Origin: Octopus sinensis
Lineage: Eukaryota
Direction: 5' to 3'
Assembly: GCF_006345805.1 (NCBI RefSeq)
Contig: NC_043014.1
Location: 54,498,001-54,562,000, forward strand
DNA: 64,000 nucleotides
Shown here: positions 8,556 to 62,541 of the stretch, one piece after another
Position numbering within the stretch: position 1 is the stretch's first letter
Layout of the letters: the number at the start of each line of letters is the position of its first letter
Notes under the pieces: generated by a model
The model's database searches: none
What the model was told of the DNA's origin: nothing
Seen by the model: only the letters and a program-made list of their open reading frames with translations
Translations under genes and position numbers: made by a program

Positions 8556-8590
8556 GTTTCCGATGAAGAGCTCCGCTCGAAACGTTAAAC
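8556..8590 (+). ncRNA. Minimal hammerhead variant (CCGAUGA core) in a short element of about 200 bp between (TA)n tracts (about 8472-8690)
   Basis: Reads GUUU CCGAUGA A GAGC-ucc-GCUC GAAA CG UU AAAC. Stem I is GUUU/AAAC and the stem III position holds the palindrome AACGUU. Confidence 0.65.
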
Positions 8591-11789: not shown

Positions 11790-11903
11790 ATATATATATA
11801 TGTGTATATATATAGTTGAAACTTATAGAAAAACGAAAGACGAAGACAGGTGTATAAACAACAAGCTGGTGTATTAGTTTGATGCTTGGGAAAATGAAAA
11901 AGT

Positions 11904-11939
11904 CTTTTACGTTTTGAGCCTACGCTCTTCAACAGAAAG
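11904..11939 (-). ncRNA. Degenerate minimal hammerhead in a short element (about 11812-11945); related copy at 61352-61387 (-)
   Basis: Minus strand reads CUUU CUGUUGA A GAGC-guag-GCUC AAAA CG UA AAAG. The second copy reads CUUU CUGUCAA AGAAC-guag-GCUU GAAA CG UC AAAG. A tail of the same element also occurs at about 2440-2485. Confidence 0.55.
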
Positions 11940-13385
11940 GATCCCAGAATCTAGTGATTCCACTGCCATTTGTTATTGATACTTTTGTGTTTTGCAGCAC
12001 TGTGTGTCTATACGAGAAGCTTTCTCAAGATGACTACCACAGTATTGTGGCTTTCTTACAATCTTAAGTAGGATATACATCATGCTAATTTGAACTAACA
12101 CTGCATCATCCACAGCAAATAACGAACGATAACAATGGTATTGTTTGATTACTTTTATTGATTTATGTTTTTCTTTTAATGTCTCGATTGTGTTAACTTT
12201 TTCCACCTCCTTTTTGACCCCCGAAAGATGCTGGAAGCTAAAACAGCAATAAAACGAATAAATAGAATAAAATAAATACATTCACAAGAAGCAACCGAAA
12301 GACAATGAGAAGGAAAAGTGTATCATGTGTGAAGAAACACAAAAGATCATGTGTGAAGCCACACAGATACAATACAAAGCATATGTCATACACTCTGTGT
12401 GTGTGTGTGTGTGTGTGGATTGACGAATGTGTAAATCTTATCTCAAGAGCCAGTATCTAACTACAAGCTGTTTACATATTATTACTGCAACCTGTAGCTT
12501 AAGCAAATATAAAAAACCCCATAAATTTACCTATAAACAGTTGTAAACTTTTGTAGTTTAATATACTTTCTCTCTCTCTCTCTCACTTGTTTCAGTCATT
12601 TGACTGCGGCCATGCTGGAGCACCGCCTTTAGTCGAGCAAATCGACCCCGGGACTTATTCTTTTGTAAGCCCAGTACTTATTCTATCGGTCTATCTTTTG
12701 CCGAACCGCTAAGTGACGGGGACGTAAACACACCAGCATCGGTTGTCAAGCAATGCTAGGGGGACAAACACAGACACACAAACACACACACGCATATATA
12801 TATATATATATATATACATATATACGATGGGCTTCTTTCAGTTTCCGTCTACCAAATCCACTCACAAGGCTTTTGTCGGCCCGAGGCTATAGTAGAAGAC
12901 ACTTGCCCAAGGTGCCACGCAGTGGGACTGAACCTGGAACCATGTGGTTGGTAAACAAGCTACTTTATCACACAGCCACGCCTGCACCTATGTCTCTGTT
13001 TTAAATATTTCTCATGTTCTTTCAGCATTTATTGATCTATTGATCTGTTGTTGATCTGTTTATCTTCTTGCTTACTTGATAAACGAAAGTTGATTGACAG
13101 AAAAAGCAATATTTCTGGTGCTGTTCGCTTAACTGGAACGGCTTTGATGATATCAAAGCCATTCCAACAATGACCCTCCTATCTTTTTCTGATCTACAGG
13201 GAACCCAGAACCACGTTATCCATTATGTCCTTTTCTAAGATAATGGAATATGGTTCAAGGGACATGTGACTGCTTTTTCTAGGAGAATGAGTGACCATGT
13301 AGAAGAGCCCTTGTCAGAAGTTTATCAGTGGTTGTGTTTGTGACCCCTGGTGCAAATTAAGAAACCAAAGTTATATATATATATA

Positions 13386-21179: not shown

Positions 21180-21942
21180 ATATCCTTTTCTACTCTAGGC
21201 ACAAGGCCCGAAATTTTTGGGGAGGGGGCTAGTCGATTAGATCGACCCCAGTATGCAACTGGTACTTAATTTATCGACCCCGAAAGGCAAAGTCGACCTC
21301 GGCAGAATTTGAACTCAGAATGTAGCGGCAGACGAAATACCTATTTCTTTACTACCCACTAGGGGCTAAACACAGAGAGGACAAACAAGGACAGACAAAT
21401 GGATTAAGTCGATTATATTGACCCCAGTGCGTAACTGGTACTTATTTAATCGACCCCGAAAGGATGAAAGGCAAAGTCGACCTCGGCAAAATTTGAACTC
21501 AGAATGTAGTGGCAGACGAAATACCTATTTTTTTATTACCCACAAGGGGCTAAACACAGAGGGGACAAACAAGGACAGACAAACGGATTAAGTCGATTAT
21601 ATCGACCCCAGTGCGTAACTGGTACTTATCTAATCGACCCTGAAAGGGTGAAAGGCAAAGTCGACTTCGGCAGTATTTGAACTCAGAACGTAGCGGCAGA
21701 CGAAATACATATTTCTTTACTACCCACAAGGGGCTAAACACAGAGAGGACAAACAAGGACAGACAAATGGATTAAGTCGATTATATCGACCCCAGTGCGT
21801 AACTGGTACTTATTTGATCGACCCCGAAAGGATGAAAAACAAAGTTGACCTCGGCGGAATTTGAACTCAGAATGTAAAGACAGACGAAATACCGCTAAGC
21901 ATTTCGCCTAGCGTGCTAACATTTCTGCCAGCTTGCCGCCTT
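21180..21942 (-). repeat. Family A SINE with about 4 tandem reiterations of its body (about 185 bp each)
   Basis: Repeated CTATTTCTTTACTACCCACAAGGGGCTAAACACAGAG...GACGAAATAC units, with a single head at about 21890-21942. Confidence 0.85.
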
Positions 21943-34355: not shown

Positions 34356-34472
34356 TCTATCCTAAATTTAAAATGAGGGTGAGAATTGGATATTAATTTA
34401 ATTAACATCGATTTCACACCAGTGGTCTAGTATATAAAAAACTGAAGGTTCAGTAAAATTGTATTATATACA

Positions 34473-34889
34473 AATTAGAGGGAAACCACTATGTGGACAC
34501 CCTTATGCTAGAAATAGATCCGCTATGGTCTTACCACAAAGAAATGTTCTCAAGAAAAATTTAGCAAAACAACGAAAACGTAAGACAAAAGAAAAAGCAA
34601 TAAAAATATGGATTATTCGCATACATGTTTCACTATTACCATATTACGTAATTTTACTTACATAAATGTCCGTAGATCTTCAGTGCGACCGTCCAAATGA
34701 ATATAATTTGCAGGACTGCATACTAGGACGTCTGCACAAAGTCAGACTTGTATGCAAATAATCCATATTTTTATTGCTTTTTCTTTTGTCTTGCTTGATT
34801 ACGTTTTGGTTGAGAACATTTCTTAGTGGTAAGACCATAGCGGATCTATTTCTAGCATAAGGGTGTCCACGTAGTGGTTTCCCTCTAAT
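34473..34889. mobile_element. Fold-back element: inverted arms of about 140-150 bp enclosing a hammerhead
   Basis: ATTAGAGGGAAACCAC...GGATTATTCGCATACA pairs with TGTATGCAAATAATCC...GTGGTTTCCCTCTAAT. The HHR lies at 34617-34688 on the minus strand. Confidence 0.75.
34617..34688 (-). ncRNA. Type I hammerhead ribozyme with intact core and long stem II
   Basis: Minus strand reads UCGCA CUGAAGA U CUA...AUGUAA-guaaaa-UUACGU...UAG U GAAA CAUG UA UGCGA. Stem I is 5 bp, stem III is the palindrome ACAUGU, and the triplet is GUA. Confidence 0.8.
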
Positions 34890-35228: not shown

Positions 35229-35471
35229 AATAAATGAAAGAATGGAGTGGAACAACGATTTTAACAAAATTCCTTTACTCTCGACATATGTTTCGAAGAC
35301 TGCATATTCTTAATTCTGATGCTGACATAGGTTCCTTGTCTTTCCTGATGAGAAGGCGGCATAATGCACCCTTTATTCCTTCGGAATTAAGAATATGCAG
35401 TCTTCAAAACATATGTCGAGAGTAAAGGAATTTTGTTAAAATCGTCGTTCGATTCCATTCTTTCATTTATT
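35229..35471. mobile_element. Fold-back element: inverted arms of about 88 bp with the hammerhead core in the loop
   Basis: AATAAATGAAAGAATGGA...CATATTCTTAATTC pairs with GAATTAAGAATATG...TCCATTCTTTCATTTATT. Confidence 0.75.
35340..35422 (+). ncRNA. Type I hammerhead ribozyme with a G12A change, sense orientation in intron 4
   Basis: Reads CUUUC CUGAUGA GAAGGC...GUCUUC AAAA CAUAUG UC GAGAG. Stem II is GAAGGC/GUCUUC, stem III is the palindrome ACAUAUGU, and the triplet is GUC. The inverted arm at about 35277-35316 keeps CGAAA, so AAAA is probably CpG decay. Confidence 0.72.
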
Positions 35472-41824: not shown

Positions 41825-42000
41825 GTTTGCGAATTGTCAGCACAAAGCAGTTTTTCCGATATGAACATATATCTGTGGCCTTGAAGAACTGTGGTTGGGC
41901 ATTAATTGGTGCCATACTCGCCTTCTTTATGGAAATAGCTGAATTTCTCCTGATTAGTAACACTTCTAGTCTTACTCTTTCCATTGCAGGAATTTTCAAG
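41825..42000 (+). CDS. SLC35C2: SLC35C2 coding exon 7
   Basis: tgtAG|GT...AAG|GTAAAC. Encodes GLRIVSTKQFFRYEH...GAILAFFMEIAEFLLISNTSSLTLSIAGIFK; TSSLTLSIAGIFK is the SLC35C2 signature. Phase 1 to 0. Confidence 0.97.
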
Positions 42001-47203: not shown

Positions 47204-47832
47204 TGTGTTTATCAATAATATTTATCTCTCACAAGATGGAGTACTTATTGATATCTTTTTTAAATTTCTAATTATATATACATATATATAATGGCATTGA
47301 GTAGTGAGAATGAGTGTTCAACATTGCACTTGGTGAATAAATATTATTTATTTACAATATTATTTATTTTGGCATTAGGAAGGGCATCCAGCCATAGAAA
47401 CACTGACAGATCTGCCTGGGCCTGATGAAGCCTTCCGGCTTCACAGACCCCAGTTGAACCATCCAACCCATGCTAGCATGGAAAACGGACGCTAAATGAT
47501 GATGATGATGATGATGAAGTTAAGAATGCTACCAATGGTTTCACGTGAAGAGAATTTACACAGTTTTTTTAGTGGGGATCACTTAAATATTCTGAAATTC
47601 CTTCTGCATAAAACTATTGGTAGCATCCTTAACCTCTAAAATAAAGTGTTATATGTGTGTTTGTGTGTGTGGAGGCACATGGTTTAGTGGTTAAGGTGTT
47701 AGACTCATGATCAAAAGATTGTGATTTTGGTTCCTGGACTGGGCCATGCGTTGTGTTCTTAAGCAAGACACTTCATTTCACATTGCCTATTTACATGGGA
47801 AATATATTTTTAAAAATAGTTTATGTGGTGAG

Positions 47833-50821: not shown

Positions 50822-50921
50822 NNNNNNNNNNNNNNNNNNNNNNNNNNNNNNNNNNNNNNNNNNNNNNNNNNNNNNNNNNNNNNNNNNNNNNNNNNNNNNN
50901 NNNNNNNNNNNNNNNNNNNNN
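50822..50921. other. Assembly gap (100 N)
   Basis: Run of exactly 100 N, a common placeholder for a gap of unknown size. Confidence 0.99.
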
Positions 50922-51899
50922 CGCATTCTGTAAAGCGTAGTTGCGGGTTTAAAGATTTAAAGAAGGGCGACAAACGAAGAACAAAATTTTAACAAATATG
51001 GTATTAGCTTAACTGTTGAATAGAAAAAGTTCTAATGTTTCTGTCATTAGTCCTTCATCAAGAGAAAAATGCAAGGAGCATAGCAAAGAGAAGGAAAGGT
51101 TCTGTTCCCAGTTCTCCGTTTCCACAACTATGAACCAACGAAAGTTGGATTATATAGCACGACCGCAAAATTCCATCAGTTTGTGACTTCATGTTTAGAG
51201 GAGTTTAAGGTTGTGAAAACTTGATGCCACAAAATGATATTGGATTCAGTGGGATCCCACTGCGCGTGGAGCTCAGCCTAGAAATGGAAAGAGGAAGGAA
51301 ATGGAGCATTTTTTTTAGGTCTCCATGTCGTTTTACCTTCCCAAATGACCGTCATCTCAACAATCAGATCTTTGTTCCACAAACCAAACAATTGCTTAAG
51401 AAGGGGCGCTGCCGTTGTGAATACGTGCAATTACCTCAAATGCATCTGTATCATACAAGTATTAGCTCAATGCAGGAGTCTAGACGTTGGATTTCCACTG
51501 TTTACATTCTTGGGTGATCCTTATTTTTCACCATCCTTAGGGATGATGAAATATTTGTCAAGTTCTTGGGAAATTAAAAGAATGAGCCACAAATCTAGAA
51601 GTCATTGACAATCGTCTCAAGCACAAGGTTGGCAATCTATGGTGCTTCCAACTGGACATGTAAAAGCAACCTGATAAACGTCGACCGCGCCTGCTCGGTT
51701 TCTTTATTAGCCACAAGGGCCCACACATAGAGGGGGAACAAACAAGGACAGACAGGCCTGCTCGCCCTCCAGGTGACGTTGCTGTCTCAGGGTAAGTCTG
51801 CGCATGCTCAGTCCCACAAACTCATGGAATATAGATAAAATATGGAGCGCCTGACTAGTGGAACGCATCCCTTCCGCATGAGAAGCGTCTGGAGCCCAG

Positions 51900-59776: not shown

Positions 59777-60291
59777 ATGTATGTCTGTCTATCTATCTAT
59801 CTGTCTGTCTATCTATCTATCTATCTTTCTATGTCTGTCTATCTATCTATCTATCTTTCTTTCTATGTCTGTCTGTTTGTCTATTTACCTATCTATCTAT
59901 CTTTCTATGTATCCATCCATCTATTTATCTATCTATCTATCCATCTCTTTGTCTATATGTATGTACATATGCGCGTATGTATATTTTGCACATACACAGA
60001 CACATACACACACACACATACATACATATATATGCATCTACACATACATATACATTTGTATAACACATACAGTTTATGTATATATATTTATACATACATC
60101 TATCTATACAGACTCTCTACCTTGTTGACACAAATGCATATGCACTCACAAGCATGTGCATATATACATACATACATATGCATTCTCACATCTTATATAT
60201 ATACACTCATATATATATGCATTTATATTGCATGTATTTATGTGGGTATGTGTAAAATTATTAAATCTGGTTTGTCGATAAAATTGCAAAA

Positions 60292-60328
60292 TTCTCAATG
60301 TTTTGGACACAAGTCCTTCATCAGGTTG
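60292..60328 (-). ncRNA. Degenerate hammerhead; related copies at about 61939-61975 (-) and 51030-51066 (-)
   Basis: Minus strand reads CUGAUGA A GGAC-uugu-GUCC AAAA CAUUG. The other copies keep GAAA but have damaged stems. The flanks at about 60175-60325 and 61835-61970 are homologous. Confidence 0.45.
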
Positions 60329-60960
60329 TTGTCTCCAATTCTGAAAATATTTATTGGAATAAATATTTTTGACACCATACAAACACCATTCTTTCCAGTT
60401 GTATGTGTGCATGCGAAAGTGCATGTGTATATGCATGTATGTTTTATATACATACATATATATATATATATATATATCATCATCATCATCATCATTTAGC
60501 GTCCGTTTTCCATGCTAGCATGGGTTGGACAGTTCGACCAGGGTCTGGTAAGCCATGGAGGCTGCACCAGGCTCCAGTCTGATCTAGCAGAGTTTCTACA
60601 ACTGAATGCCCTTCCTAACGCCAACCACTCCGTGAGTGTAGTGGGTGATTTTTACGTGCCTCCAGCCACGATCGGTTGGTGCTCTTATGTGTCACCGACA
60701 CAGATGCCAGTCGGGCGGTGCTGGCATCTGATCAAGGGTATGAAAGGTATTGGTGTCAGGAAGACCCAAAAGGTATCGAGTAAACGCTAAGTAAGTACTA
60801 TGGATAGACCATGGTTAAGCTCCAGGCTTGATAATGATATGAGTCAGGAGTTCAATGTGGGTCATGTATTAGCATGTATATATATATAGATTGACAGAAT
60901 GAGATAAAGAAAAAAAAATCCAAGGCAGTAAATAGATTTCAGAACATTTATAAAGAAAAG

Positions 60961-61008
60961 GTCTTACAGCTGTTTCGGGGATATTTTTTATACCCCTTCA
61001 TCAGAGAC
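60961..61008 (-). ncRNA. Minimal type I hammerhead ribozyme with intact core
   Basis: Minus strand reads GUCU CUGAUGA A GGGG-uauaaaaaauau-CCCC GAAA CAGCUG UA AGAC. Stem I is GUCU/AGAC, the core is canonical, stem II is G4/C4, stem III is the palindrome ACAGCUGU, and the cleavage triplet is GUA. Confidence 0.85.
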
Positions 61009-61495
61009 GGTGCGAGAAAATGTTTGAGTTTTAATTATTGTAGAAAATTATTGGGAAATAAGAGAATTTATATAGAAGTGAGATACATAAGGATATTGTA
61101 TTTGCAGTTCCATTATTCAAGTAGACTGGTGTATGTAAGTGGTGAAAAACTTTTTTTGGTGAAGAAACTTTCTTGTACCCGGTGTGTAGTTTCCATTGAT
61201 AGTTATATTTGGTCATTCCAAGCATACAGCCTTGTAAAACATGTTGGTCACTCGAGGGGTTTTAGCTTAAATTTATAGAAAACAAAATTGAAGACAGGTG
61301 AAGAAACAACCACCGGGTGAATAGTTTACTGTTTGGGAAGAAAGGAAAAGTCTTTGACGTTTCAAGCCTACGTTCTTTGACAGAAAGGACCGAGAGACAA
61401 AAAACAGAGAGAGAGAAAAATGTGTGGGGATTAACAGTTCAATATATATATATATATATATATTAAATAAACCTCGCTAAGATAAATATTTCAAT

Positions 61496-61566
61496 TAACC
61501 TGAAGATTGACTGTAACCACAACTTGAATTATTACGAATTGTACAGTCATGAAACGATCATAGTGT
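61496..61566 (+). ncRNA. Hammerhead-like motif
   Basis: Reads AAC CUGAAGA U UGACUGUA-(26 nt)-UACAGUCA U GAAA CGAUCA UA GUG. Stem II is a perfect 8 bp, stem III is near-palindromic and stem I is weak. Confidence 0.6.
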
Positions 61567-62541
61567 TTTACTCTTTATCTTTTATTAAACTTTTAATACT
61601 TTTGATATATATTTAAAATAGTATAAATTAATTAATTTTATGTATTGGCTTATGTTTTTCATTGTTTGATTTGCCTAATAGTGGTTTTATCTCTAATTTA
61701 ATATAATATAATATAATATATTTTACTATAAAATTGGATTTAATCCTAAATCTGGTTTTTTCCCTGTAAGTTTGGATTTATTCCCTAATATTTTATAATT
61801 ATATATATATATATATAAACACATACATACATATATTCTTATATTCTTATACATACACTCATATATATGTATTTATATTGTATTTATGTGCGTATATGTA
61901 AAATTATTTGATTTGATTTGTCGATAGGATTGCAAAATTCCCAAAGTTTCAAACACAAGTCCTTCATCAAAGAGAGAAGAGAAAAGCTTTATTTGTAGTA
62001 TCTTCAACTACATACATACATGCATATTTATATTTATGTGTGTTTGTGTGATCTTTATTTGGGAATTAAGGCTACCATTGGTTTCATGTTAAGAGAAGAA
62101 GGAAAATATCTGAGTGTCTTAACAATTTTTCAAGCCAATCACATGGAGATAAGTGTTTGTCTCCATCCTGGAAAACAATATCTATGTGATTGGCTTGAAA
62201 AATTGTTTAAAACACTAGGATATTTTCCTGCTTTACTTAACATGAAACCAATGGTTTCACAGATAAAGAAATTATATATCCACCAAGGCAGTGTTGAGCA
62301 CTCATTTTCATGGTTCAACATTTAATTATACACACACACTCATATATATATATATATACACATGTATGTATGTATGTATGTATATATATGTGTGCATATA
62401 AATTTATATACATATATGTGTATATATTTATGTATAATATATAAATAATATATTAATATATATATACATACACATACATAGATATACATTATACATACAT
62501 TGGATTGAGAGAGGTAAGGAGAGAGAGAGAGGGGGGGAGAA

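What the first reader, a model, noticed from the sequence alone, without database searches (positions are those of the whole stretch)
60880..61280. Best-preserved ribozyme: intact minimal HHR at the end of a Penelope-like terminal fragment
On the minus strand, 61008-60961 has every catalytic position canonical (CUGAUGA, GAAA, GUA). It follows about 270 nt of non-microsatellite sequence resembling a PLE terminal repeat and ends in a short tail against (TA)n. Four more HHR-like motifs lie within about 1 kb (60292, 61352, 61496, 61939), so this is a local hotspot of such insertions.
Basis: partly seen in the sequence, partly recalled or inferred. Interest (0 to 1): 0.7.

Follow-up and report, generated by a model that had tools for sequence, protein, structure and literature searches.

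The report
Penelope-type hammerhead in an octopus repeat
A real hammerhead-ribozyme motif sits in one copy of a very abundant octopus repeat, likely the truncated tail of a Penelope-like jumping gene; this RNA kind was described in 2014 and is predicted to cut only in pairs, so the find is correct but ordinary.

Summary
The motif is real. Minus strand 61008-60961 reads GUCU-CUGAUGA-A-[helix II]-GAAA-CAGCUG-UA-AGAC; 0 of 100 shuffles gave an equal motif, and the predicted cut is 60965/60964 as stated. The host is an Octopus. The motif lies in a 373-nt copy (60890-61262) of a repeat with 43 to 2000 matching contigs per run in four organisms. It ends at (TA)6, and some family contigs show opposite-strand joints. 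It fits the Penelope-element hammerheads of Cervera and De la Pena 2014: not the strict minimal form, but their variant with a small palindromic helix III. Corrections: helix II most likely leaves an unpaired base on both sides, which the 2014 descriptor already allows. Only 254 nt upstream belong to this family. The four neighbours are damaged motifs of three other families. No Penelope ORF was found, so the Penelope link is inferred from hallmarks. Cleavage is untested. The dimer fold is predicted for the bare motif only, and no same-family partner lies in the window, so this copy is probably inert. New member of a known kind; low interest.

The parts
60961..61008 (-). Type-I hammerhead ribozyme motif, Penelope-type variant with small palindromic helix III
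61005..61008 (-). Stem I, 5' strand (GUCU), pairs with 60964-60961 (AGAC); 4 bp
60997..61004 (-). Core box CUGAUGA plus the extra residue (A60997, 'N10') typical of Penelope hammerheads
60978..60996 (-). Helix II, 7 bp (one G.U where the family has A-U), 5-nt loop; predicted pairing G60996-C60978 (probability 0.905 versus 0.087 for G60996-C60977)
60973..60977 (-). Extra residue C60977 ('N11', variable in the family) and core box GAAA
60966..60973 (-). Palindrome ACAGCUGU: weak helix III in a monomer, 8-bp intermolecular helix in a predicted dimer
60964..60965 (-). Predicted cleavage site, after GUA (A17 = 60965)
   Evidence: sequence plus established hammerhead numbering; untested
60890..61262 (-). 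Copy of a high-copy dispersed repeat (254 nt upstream of the motif, 71 nt downstream); likely the 5'-truncated 3' end of a Penelope-like element
60877..60888 (.). (TA)6 tract at the 3' end of the copy (likely insertion target)
   Evidence: (loose ends at 60877)
61263..61440 (-). Directly abutting fragment of a different repeat family with a damaged hammerhead-like motif (61387-61352); second copy at 11813-11941
   Evidence: junction spanned by an X1 contig with 1 difference

Best explanation
The 48 bases are a type-I hammerhead ribozyme motif with all core positions present, inside one copy of an abundant octopus repeat that is likely the 5'-truncated 3' end of a Penelope-like retroelement inserted at a (TA)n tract. 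In the parent element the motif is predicted to work as a double hammerhead: two copies in a tandem transcript pair through the palindrome ACAGCUGU, and each cuts after GUA to trim the retrotransposon RNA. This lone, diverged copy likely lacks a partner and a promoter, and is most likely an inert passenger. Shown: motif, family, boundaries, host genus. Inferred: Penelope parent, dimer mechanism, inertness.
For: Motif far above chance (0 of 100 shuffles). It matches the published consensus 'NNN CUGANGAH G...C GAAAN palindrome NU H NNN' and the descriptor with extra N10 and N11 once a palindromic insert is allowed. Rows of that alignment with the same type of helix III include Drosophila willistoni, Aedes and Saccoglossus. 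Family: 2000 (round figure, probably a cap; about 76% of the run read), 43, 1087 and 1822 contigs in runs of four organisms, covering about 60877-61263, with depth peaking on the ribozyme. Of the 40 difference rows shown (134 in all), 5 fall in the motif, all in helix II, its loop or N11; the two in the stem keep pairing (A-U/G.U at 60993, G-C/G.U at 60978). Penelope hallmarks named in PMC8557442: (TA)n target (met); 5' fall-off of cover; opposite-strand joints (5 of 15 joint rows, one contig each). Two copies of the 48-mer fold in silico into the double-hammerhead shape (-29.1 versus 2 x -10.6 kcal/mol). O. vulgaris is reported to hold Penelope-like families, 31 of them recently active (PMC13282606 passages).
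Against: No RT or GIY-YIG remnant was found: Pfam gave 0 families in 6 read-through frames of 60220-62330 and in 2 open frames; the Atlas gave no usable hit; phmmer of one upstream frame gave one spurious repeat protein. No longer copy could be read. The dimer energy gain is not unusual (63 of 200 shuffled 48-mers gain as much). In longer contexts stem I is lost, and with the whole 373-nt fragment the palindromic helix is absent from the best fold. The monomer's best fold is not the hammerhead fold. 94 difference rows were not shown, so core invariance in the family is not proven. The fall of cover toward the 5' side may reflect divergence at the 80% cut-off rather than truncation.
Confidence: 0.8

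Rival explanations
1. The family is a non-autonomous, ORF-less element (retrozyme- or SINE-like unit derived from a Penelope terminal repeat) that is moved in trans and uses the dimeric hammerhead to release unit-length or circular RNA.
For: No ORF found. Two single contigs run back on themselves (X1 60985 to 60939; X4 61026 to 60934, depth 2.1), as short tandems would. A preprint derives animal retrozymes from Penelope pLTRs and reports solo monomers.
Against: No tandem at this locus. Cover falls off gradually with many indels, with no sharp 5' end seen. Described animal retrozymes carry canonical type-I hammerheads in 150-450 bp tandems (PMC7229834 passages). The two go-back contigs are single records, one at error-level depth.
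Confidence: 0.13
2. This copy has been kept because it does a job for the host, for example ending or trimming a transcript antisense to, or downstream of, SLC35C2.
For: Core intact although the copy is diverged from its family. Near-identical locus sequence in two organisms (X1 contig 61152-61300, 1 difference; X2 contig 61043-61267, 2 differences).
Against: It is one of very many copies, so some keep a perfect 48-mer by chance. It lies antisense to SLC35C2 and about 10 kb beyond its last mapped coding exon. The design needs a partner and none is nearby. Neither of the two locus contigs covers the motif itself.
Confidence: 0.03
3. A chance match in AT-rich repeat DNA.
For: Weak folding z-scores; no Rfam hit.
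Against: 0 of 100 and 0 of 40 shuffles; family depth peaks on the motif, and the stem changes shown keep pairing.
Confidence: 0.01

Closest known systems
Hammerheads of metazoan Penelope-like elements, variant with a small palindromic helix III (Cervera and De la Pena 2014, PMC4209133; D. willistoni, Aedes, rotifer, shrimp examples)
   Same: Type I, short stem I (4 bp), long helix II (7 bp), extra residue after A9, G10.1-C11.1, palindromic helix III, U/AU-rich flanks, dispersed single copies in large numbers.
   Different: No cephalopod among the 56 aligned motifs. Extra residues on both sides of helix II are allowed by their descriptor but rare in their alignment (one 'AGAAA' among the extracted boxes). 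Parent ORF not shown here.
Strict minimal hammerhead (min-HHR, descriptor of Fig. S7 of the same paper)
   Same: Same core boxes, stem ranges and optional N10 and N11.
   Different: Six bases (CAGCUG), not two, lie between GAAA and UH, so the strict descriptor does not match.
Dimer-cleaving Penelope hammerhead variants (Lunse, Weinberg, Breaker, RNA Biol; not held; seen only as cited in PMC6765202)
   Same: Short palindromic stem III, dimer cleavage proposed.
   Different: Could not compare motif classes; that paper may already list octopus copies.
Animal non-LTR retrozymes (PMC7229834; bioRxiv 10.64898/2026.07.22.740005)
   Same: Type-I hammerhead in an ORF-less repeat; related to Penelope terminal repeats.
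   Different: Those are 150-450 bp tandems with canonical hammerheads and circular RNAs; this copy is single and of the Penelope variant type.

Membership tests
Penelope-type hammerhead (Cervera and De la Pena 2014) | Core CUGANGA, GAAA, UH in type-I order | tested here: met
Penelope-type hammerhead (Cervera and De la Pena 2014) | Stem I 3-7 bp; helix II 3-7 bp with loop 3-10; optional extra N10 and N11 | tested here: met
   4 bp, 7 bp, loop 5, both extras
Penelope-type hammerhead (Cervera and De la Pena 2014) | G10.1-C11.1 pair and palindromic helix III | tested here: met
   G60996 pairs with a C in either register; ACAGCUGU is a perfect palindrome
Penelope-type hammerhead (Cervera and De la Pena 2014) | Member of a large, variable, dispersed genomic family | tested here: met
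   43 to 2000 contigs per run in 4 of 4 runs
Penelope-type hammerhead (Cervera and De la Pena 2014) | Self-cleavage as a dimer | not testable with these tools
   Dimer fold predicted for the bare 48-mer only; lost in longer contexts
Strict min-HHR descriptor (Fig. S7) | GAAA-NN-UH with no helix III loop | tested here: not met
   0 matches in the window; this motif has a 6-nt insert
Penelope-like element (EN+) | RT plus GIY-YIG ORF upstream of the terminal repeat | tested here: inconclusive
   None in this 373-nt copy, as expected if truncated; longer copies could not be read
Penelope-like element (EN+) | Partial tandem (pseudo-LTR) arrangement | tested here: inconclusive
   No second copy in the window; two single go-back contigs in the family
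Penelope-like element (EN+) | Frequent 5' truncation and inverted 5'-truncated copies | tested here: inconclusive
   Cover falls toward the 5' side; 5 of 15 joint rows are opposite-strand, one contig each; divergence could also cause the fall
Penelope-like element (EN+) | 3' end at a microsatellite, often (TA)n | tested here: met
   (TA)6 at 60877-60888; family contigs diverge beyond it
Non-LTR retrozyme | Head-to-tail tandem of 150-450 bp units each with a hammerhead | tested here: not met
   No tandem at this locus
Non-LTR retrozyme | Abundant circular RNA | not testable with these tools
   Only contigs were laid
Rfam hammerhead families | Covariance-model score | tested here: not met
   No match at gathering score or among 26 matches up to E 10

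The most novel reading that the evidence does not exclude
Octopus genomes carry several very abundant hammerhead families whose rule is an unpaired base on both sides of helix II (three motifs of different families in this window). Thousands of dispersed solo copies embedded in nuclear transcripts could pair in trans through the 8-base palindrome and cut host pre-mRNAs, forming a genome-wide, ORF-independent cleavage network rather than inert Penelope debris.
Probability: 0.05. Interest if true: 0.6.

Novelty: new member of a known kind. Interest (0 to 1): 0.13.

Why it matters
Little beyond cataloguing. The motif class, its place in Penelope terminal repeats, its abundance and its dimer mechanism were published in 2014, and even the two-sided extra residues are in that paper's descriptor. 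The modest addition is taxonomic: three full-text searches listed no paper describing octopus Penelope hammerheads, though the most relevant survey (Lunse et al.) is not held and the O. vulgaris repeat library is on Zenodo, unseen. The family is a convenient natural set for asking how an extra base before G12 affects cleavage. It would matter more only if solo copies were shown to cut host RNAs in trans.

Tried and rejected
Whole-genome search: no genome held. Exact-pattern scans: 0 in metagenome contigs, 0 in prokaryote genomes. A shorter pattern gave 11 viral loci, none with the motif's flanking stem I or a hammerhead helix II by eye; taken as chance. Rfam: nothing relevant. ORF search: Pfam on read-through frames around this and other motifs gave only sub-threshold unrelated hits; no usable Atlas hit; phmmer was run on 1 of the 3 minus-strand upstream frames, and its single hit P0028 is a protein of tandem InlB B-type repeats whose score sums 7 stretches, and tblastn back to the window hit only a simple repeat, so it was rejected. 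The 127-codon stop-free plus-strand frame (60895-61278) has no Met and no Pfam hit, 14 of 1000 simulations reach it, and family indels of 1, 5, 7 and 8 bases break it; rejected as a gene. Expression: no RNA holder listed on record; the 'RNA?' run X2 holds family contigs and one contig of this locus at depth 4.3, which is no evidence either way. I first took the two-sided extra residue for a new core variant and dropped that after reading the Fig. S7 descriptor. The motif text was not found in the supplement of PMC8557442 (long cells are cut there). Lunse et al. not held. The supplement of PMC13282606 was listed but not read; supplements of the bioRxiv preprint are closed. Earlier scan notes on this genome or on look-alike sequence: none.

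Full report
Observation. On the minus strand, 61008-60961 reads GUCU CUGAUGA A GGGGUAUAAAAAAUAUCCCC GAAA CAGCUG UA AGAC. A scan needing a perfect core plus three stems found this site and one weaker site (7934-7851). Only this one had stem I and stem II of at least 4 bp and a palindromic helix III, and 0 of 100 dinucleotide shuffles of the window gave such a motif. A looser scan found 3 perfect-core sites in the window and none in 40 shuffles. Folding energy alone is weak support (z -1.1 to -2.1), and Rfam does not detect it.

Host and setting. An exon at 41827-42000 is 98% identical to SLC35C2 of Octopus vulgaris and O. bimaculoides. Plus-strand exons map from about 27.7 kb to 50820, and 4 of 5 stretches of the O. 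vulgaris protein are 100% identical. A run of N follows the last mapped exon, so the gene end is not seen. The motif is antisense to this gene and about 10 kb beyond it, in DNA made of microsatellites and repeats. No whole genome is held.

The repeat. 60890-61262 has no second copy in the window. Laid at 80% likeness on four runs from four organism labels (4 of 24 listed), it drew 2000 (round figure, probably a cap; about 76% of the run read), 43, 1087 and 1822 contigs. Cover runs from about 60877 to 61263 and peaks on the 3' half of the ribozyme. In X1 the summed depth at 60990-61004 is about 108,000, against 38.6 for the one locus-specific contig; the tool warns that this is no copy number, so I take it only as 'very many'. 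The window copy is not young: 45 of 2000 X1 contigs are at least 99% alike, 912 are under 90%. The 3' end lies 71 nt after the motif at (TA)6 (60877-60888), beyond which family contigs go their own way. Upstream there are 254 nt of this family; at 61263 a different repeat begins, with a second copy at 11813-11941. One X1 contig spans that junction with 1 difference, so it is not an assembly artefact. Five of 15 joint rows join opposite strands, one contig each. Inverted 5'-truncated copies, 5' truncation and (TA)n targets are hallmarks of endonuclease-bearing Penelope-like elements (PMC8557442, passages).

Anatomy. Helix II has two possible registers. The 7-bp register (G60996-C60978, -7.5 kcal/mol, pair probability 0.905) beats the bulged one (G60996-C60977, -5.5, 0.087). 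The family data agree. At 60993 about 99% of depth has the base that makes an A-U pair where this copy has G.U. At 60978 much of the depth has U, still pairing with G60996. At 60977 much has G, which cannot pair with it (part of the depth at 60977-60978 comes from related subfamilies that do not cover the 5' half). So an unpaired base most likely sits on each side of helix II. Of 40 difference rows shown (134 in all), the 5 inside the motif are all in helix II, its loop or this extra base; the 94 hidden rows could hold others. I first thought the two-sided extra was new, but the descriptor of Cervera and De la Pena (PMC4209133; main text parts 1-2 of 4 and the whole supplement PDF read) allows 'a possible extra N10' and 'a possible extra N11'. 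Their strict descriptor needs GAAA-NN-UH and matches nothing in the window. With a palindromic insert allowed it matches this motif alone, with both extras. The motif therefore belongs with their variant having a small palindromic helix III (Drosophila willistoni, mosquitoes, rotifers, shrimp), not the strict minimal form.

Mechanism. From that paper and a review (PMC6765202, passages): such motifs do not cleave as monomers, cleave weakly as dimers, and are proposed to process tandem Penelope transcripts. Here the monomer's best fold is not the hammerhead fold. Two 48-mers fold into the double-hammerhead shape with an 8-bp ACAGCUGU helix (-29.1 versus 2 x -10.6 kcal/mol). Against over-reading this: 63 of 200 shuffled 48-mers gain as much on dimerising, stem I is lost when 91 or 211 nt of context are included, and with the whole 373 nt the palindromic helix is not in the best fold. 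With no same-family partner in 64 kb, I infer that this copy is most likely inert. Cleavage and expression are untested; no RNA holder is on record.

What is missing. No RT or GIY-YIG remnant was found: Pfam on six read-through frames of 60220-62330 and two open frames gave nothing, the Atlas gave nothing usable, and phmmer of one upstream frame returned one spurious repeat protein. Pattern scans found no longer copy in metagenome or prokaryote collections, and the 11 viral hits look like chance. The Penelope parent is thus inferred from motif type and insertion hallmarks, helped by the report of 31 recently active Penelope-like families in O. vulgaris (PMC13282606, passages). A non-autonomous retrozyme-like family remains possible (PMC7229834 passages; bioRxiv 10.64898/2026.07.22.740005, part 1 of 5 and passages), but no tandem exists at this locus.

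Neighbours. 60292 and 61939 are 86% alike over 91 nt and 82% over 164 nt including the microsatellite flank, so they may be one local duplication. Clustering is plausible, since Penelope elements tend to insert near earlier copies, but blind scans show only a modest excess here.

Novelty. The kind has been known since 2014. Searches for octopus + Penelope + hammerhead ribozyme, hammerhead + ribozyme + octopus and cephalopod + hammerhead ribozyme listed no paper describing these octopus motifs; a giant squid genome paper mentions 235 Rfam hammerhead-1 matches (PMC6962438, passages). Lunse et al. could not be read and may already include them. Earlier notes of this scan report the same kind in at least 7 other genomes (AI notes, unchecked, not counted as support). 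Verdict: observation confirmed, interpretation largely right but with the ORF link unproven; a new member of a known kind; interest 0.13.

Noticed in passing
window 34688-34617 (-): Second motif with a perfect core (stem I 5 bp, palindrome ACAUGU, long helix II, extra U on both sides), inside a head-to-head inverted repeat of about 34400-34740 that looks like an inverted 5'-truncated insertion.
   Followed up: partly
window 8556-8590 (+): Strict-minimal-type motif (GAAA-CG-UU) with one core change (CCGAUGA), between two TA tracts.
   Followed up: partly
window 61263-61440 (-) and 11813-11941 (-): Family whose two copies both have U at core position 6 (CUGUCAA, CUGUUGA); may be a family-wide variant or shared decay. 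The 61263 copy abuts the focal fragment with no TA tract between, making one same-strand unit between two (TA)n tracts.
   Followed up: partly
window 61500-61560 (+): CUGAAGA...GAAA motif with an 8-bp helix II and an extra U on both sides, but no stem I.
   Followed up: partly
window 62074-62255: Hairpin of about 180 nt (outer arms 84% complementary) with a GAAAC-containing end on both arms, like the 3' half of a hammerhead; related end at 47525-47554.
   Followed up: no
window 60160-60323, 61815-61969, 51026-51060: One family of damaged motifs; two of three copies have U at core position 3. The first two share decayed microsatellite flank and may be a local duplication.
   Followed up: partly
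window 60895-61278 (+): 127-codon stop-free frame almost coextensive with the repeat copy; no Met, no Pfam hit, 14 of 1000 simulations, broken by family indels.
   Followed up: yes
window 27727-50820 (+): Octopus SLC35C2 gene; the last coding exon runs into a 100-base N stretch at 50822-50921.
   Followed up: partly
window 21231-21893: Tandem of 3.6 copies of a 184-nt unit; from memory it resembles a common octopus SINE (recalled, not tested).
   Followed up: no
window 35340-35422 (+) and 7934-7851 (-): Two further hammerhead-like matches with long helix II regions, one with AAAA for GAAA, one with a weak 3-bp stem.
   Followed up: no
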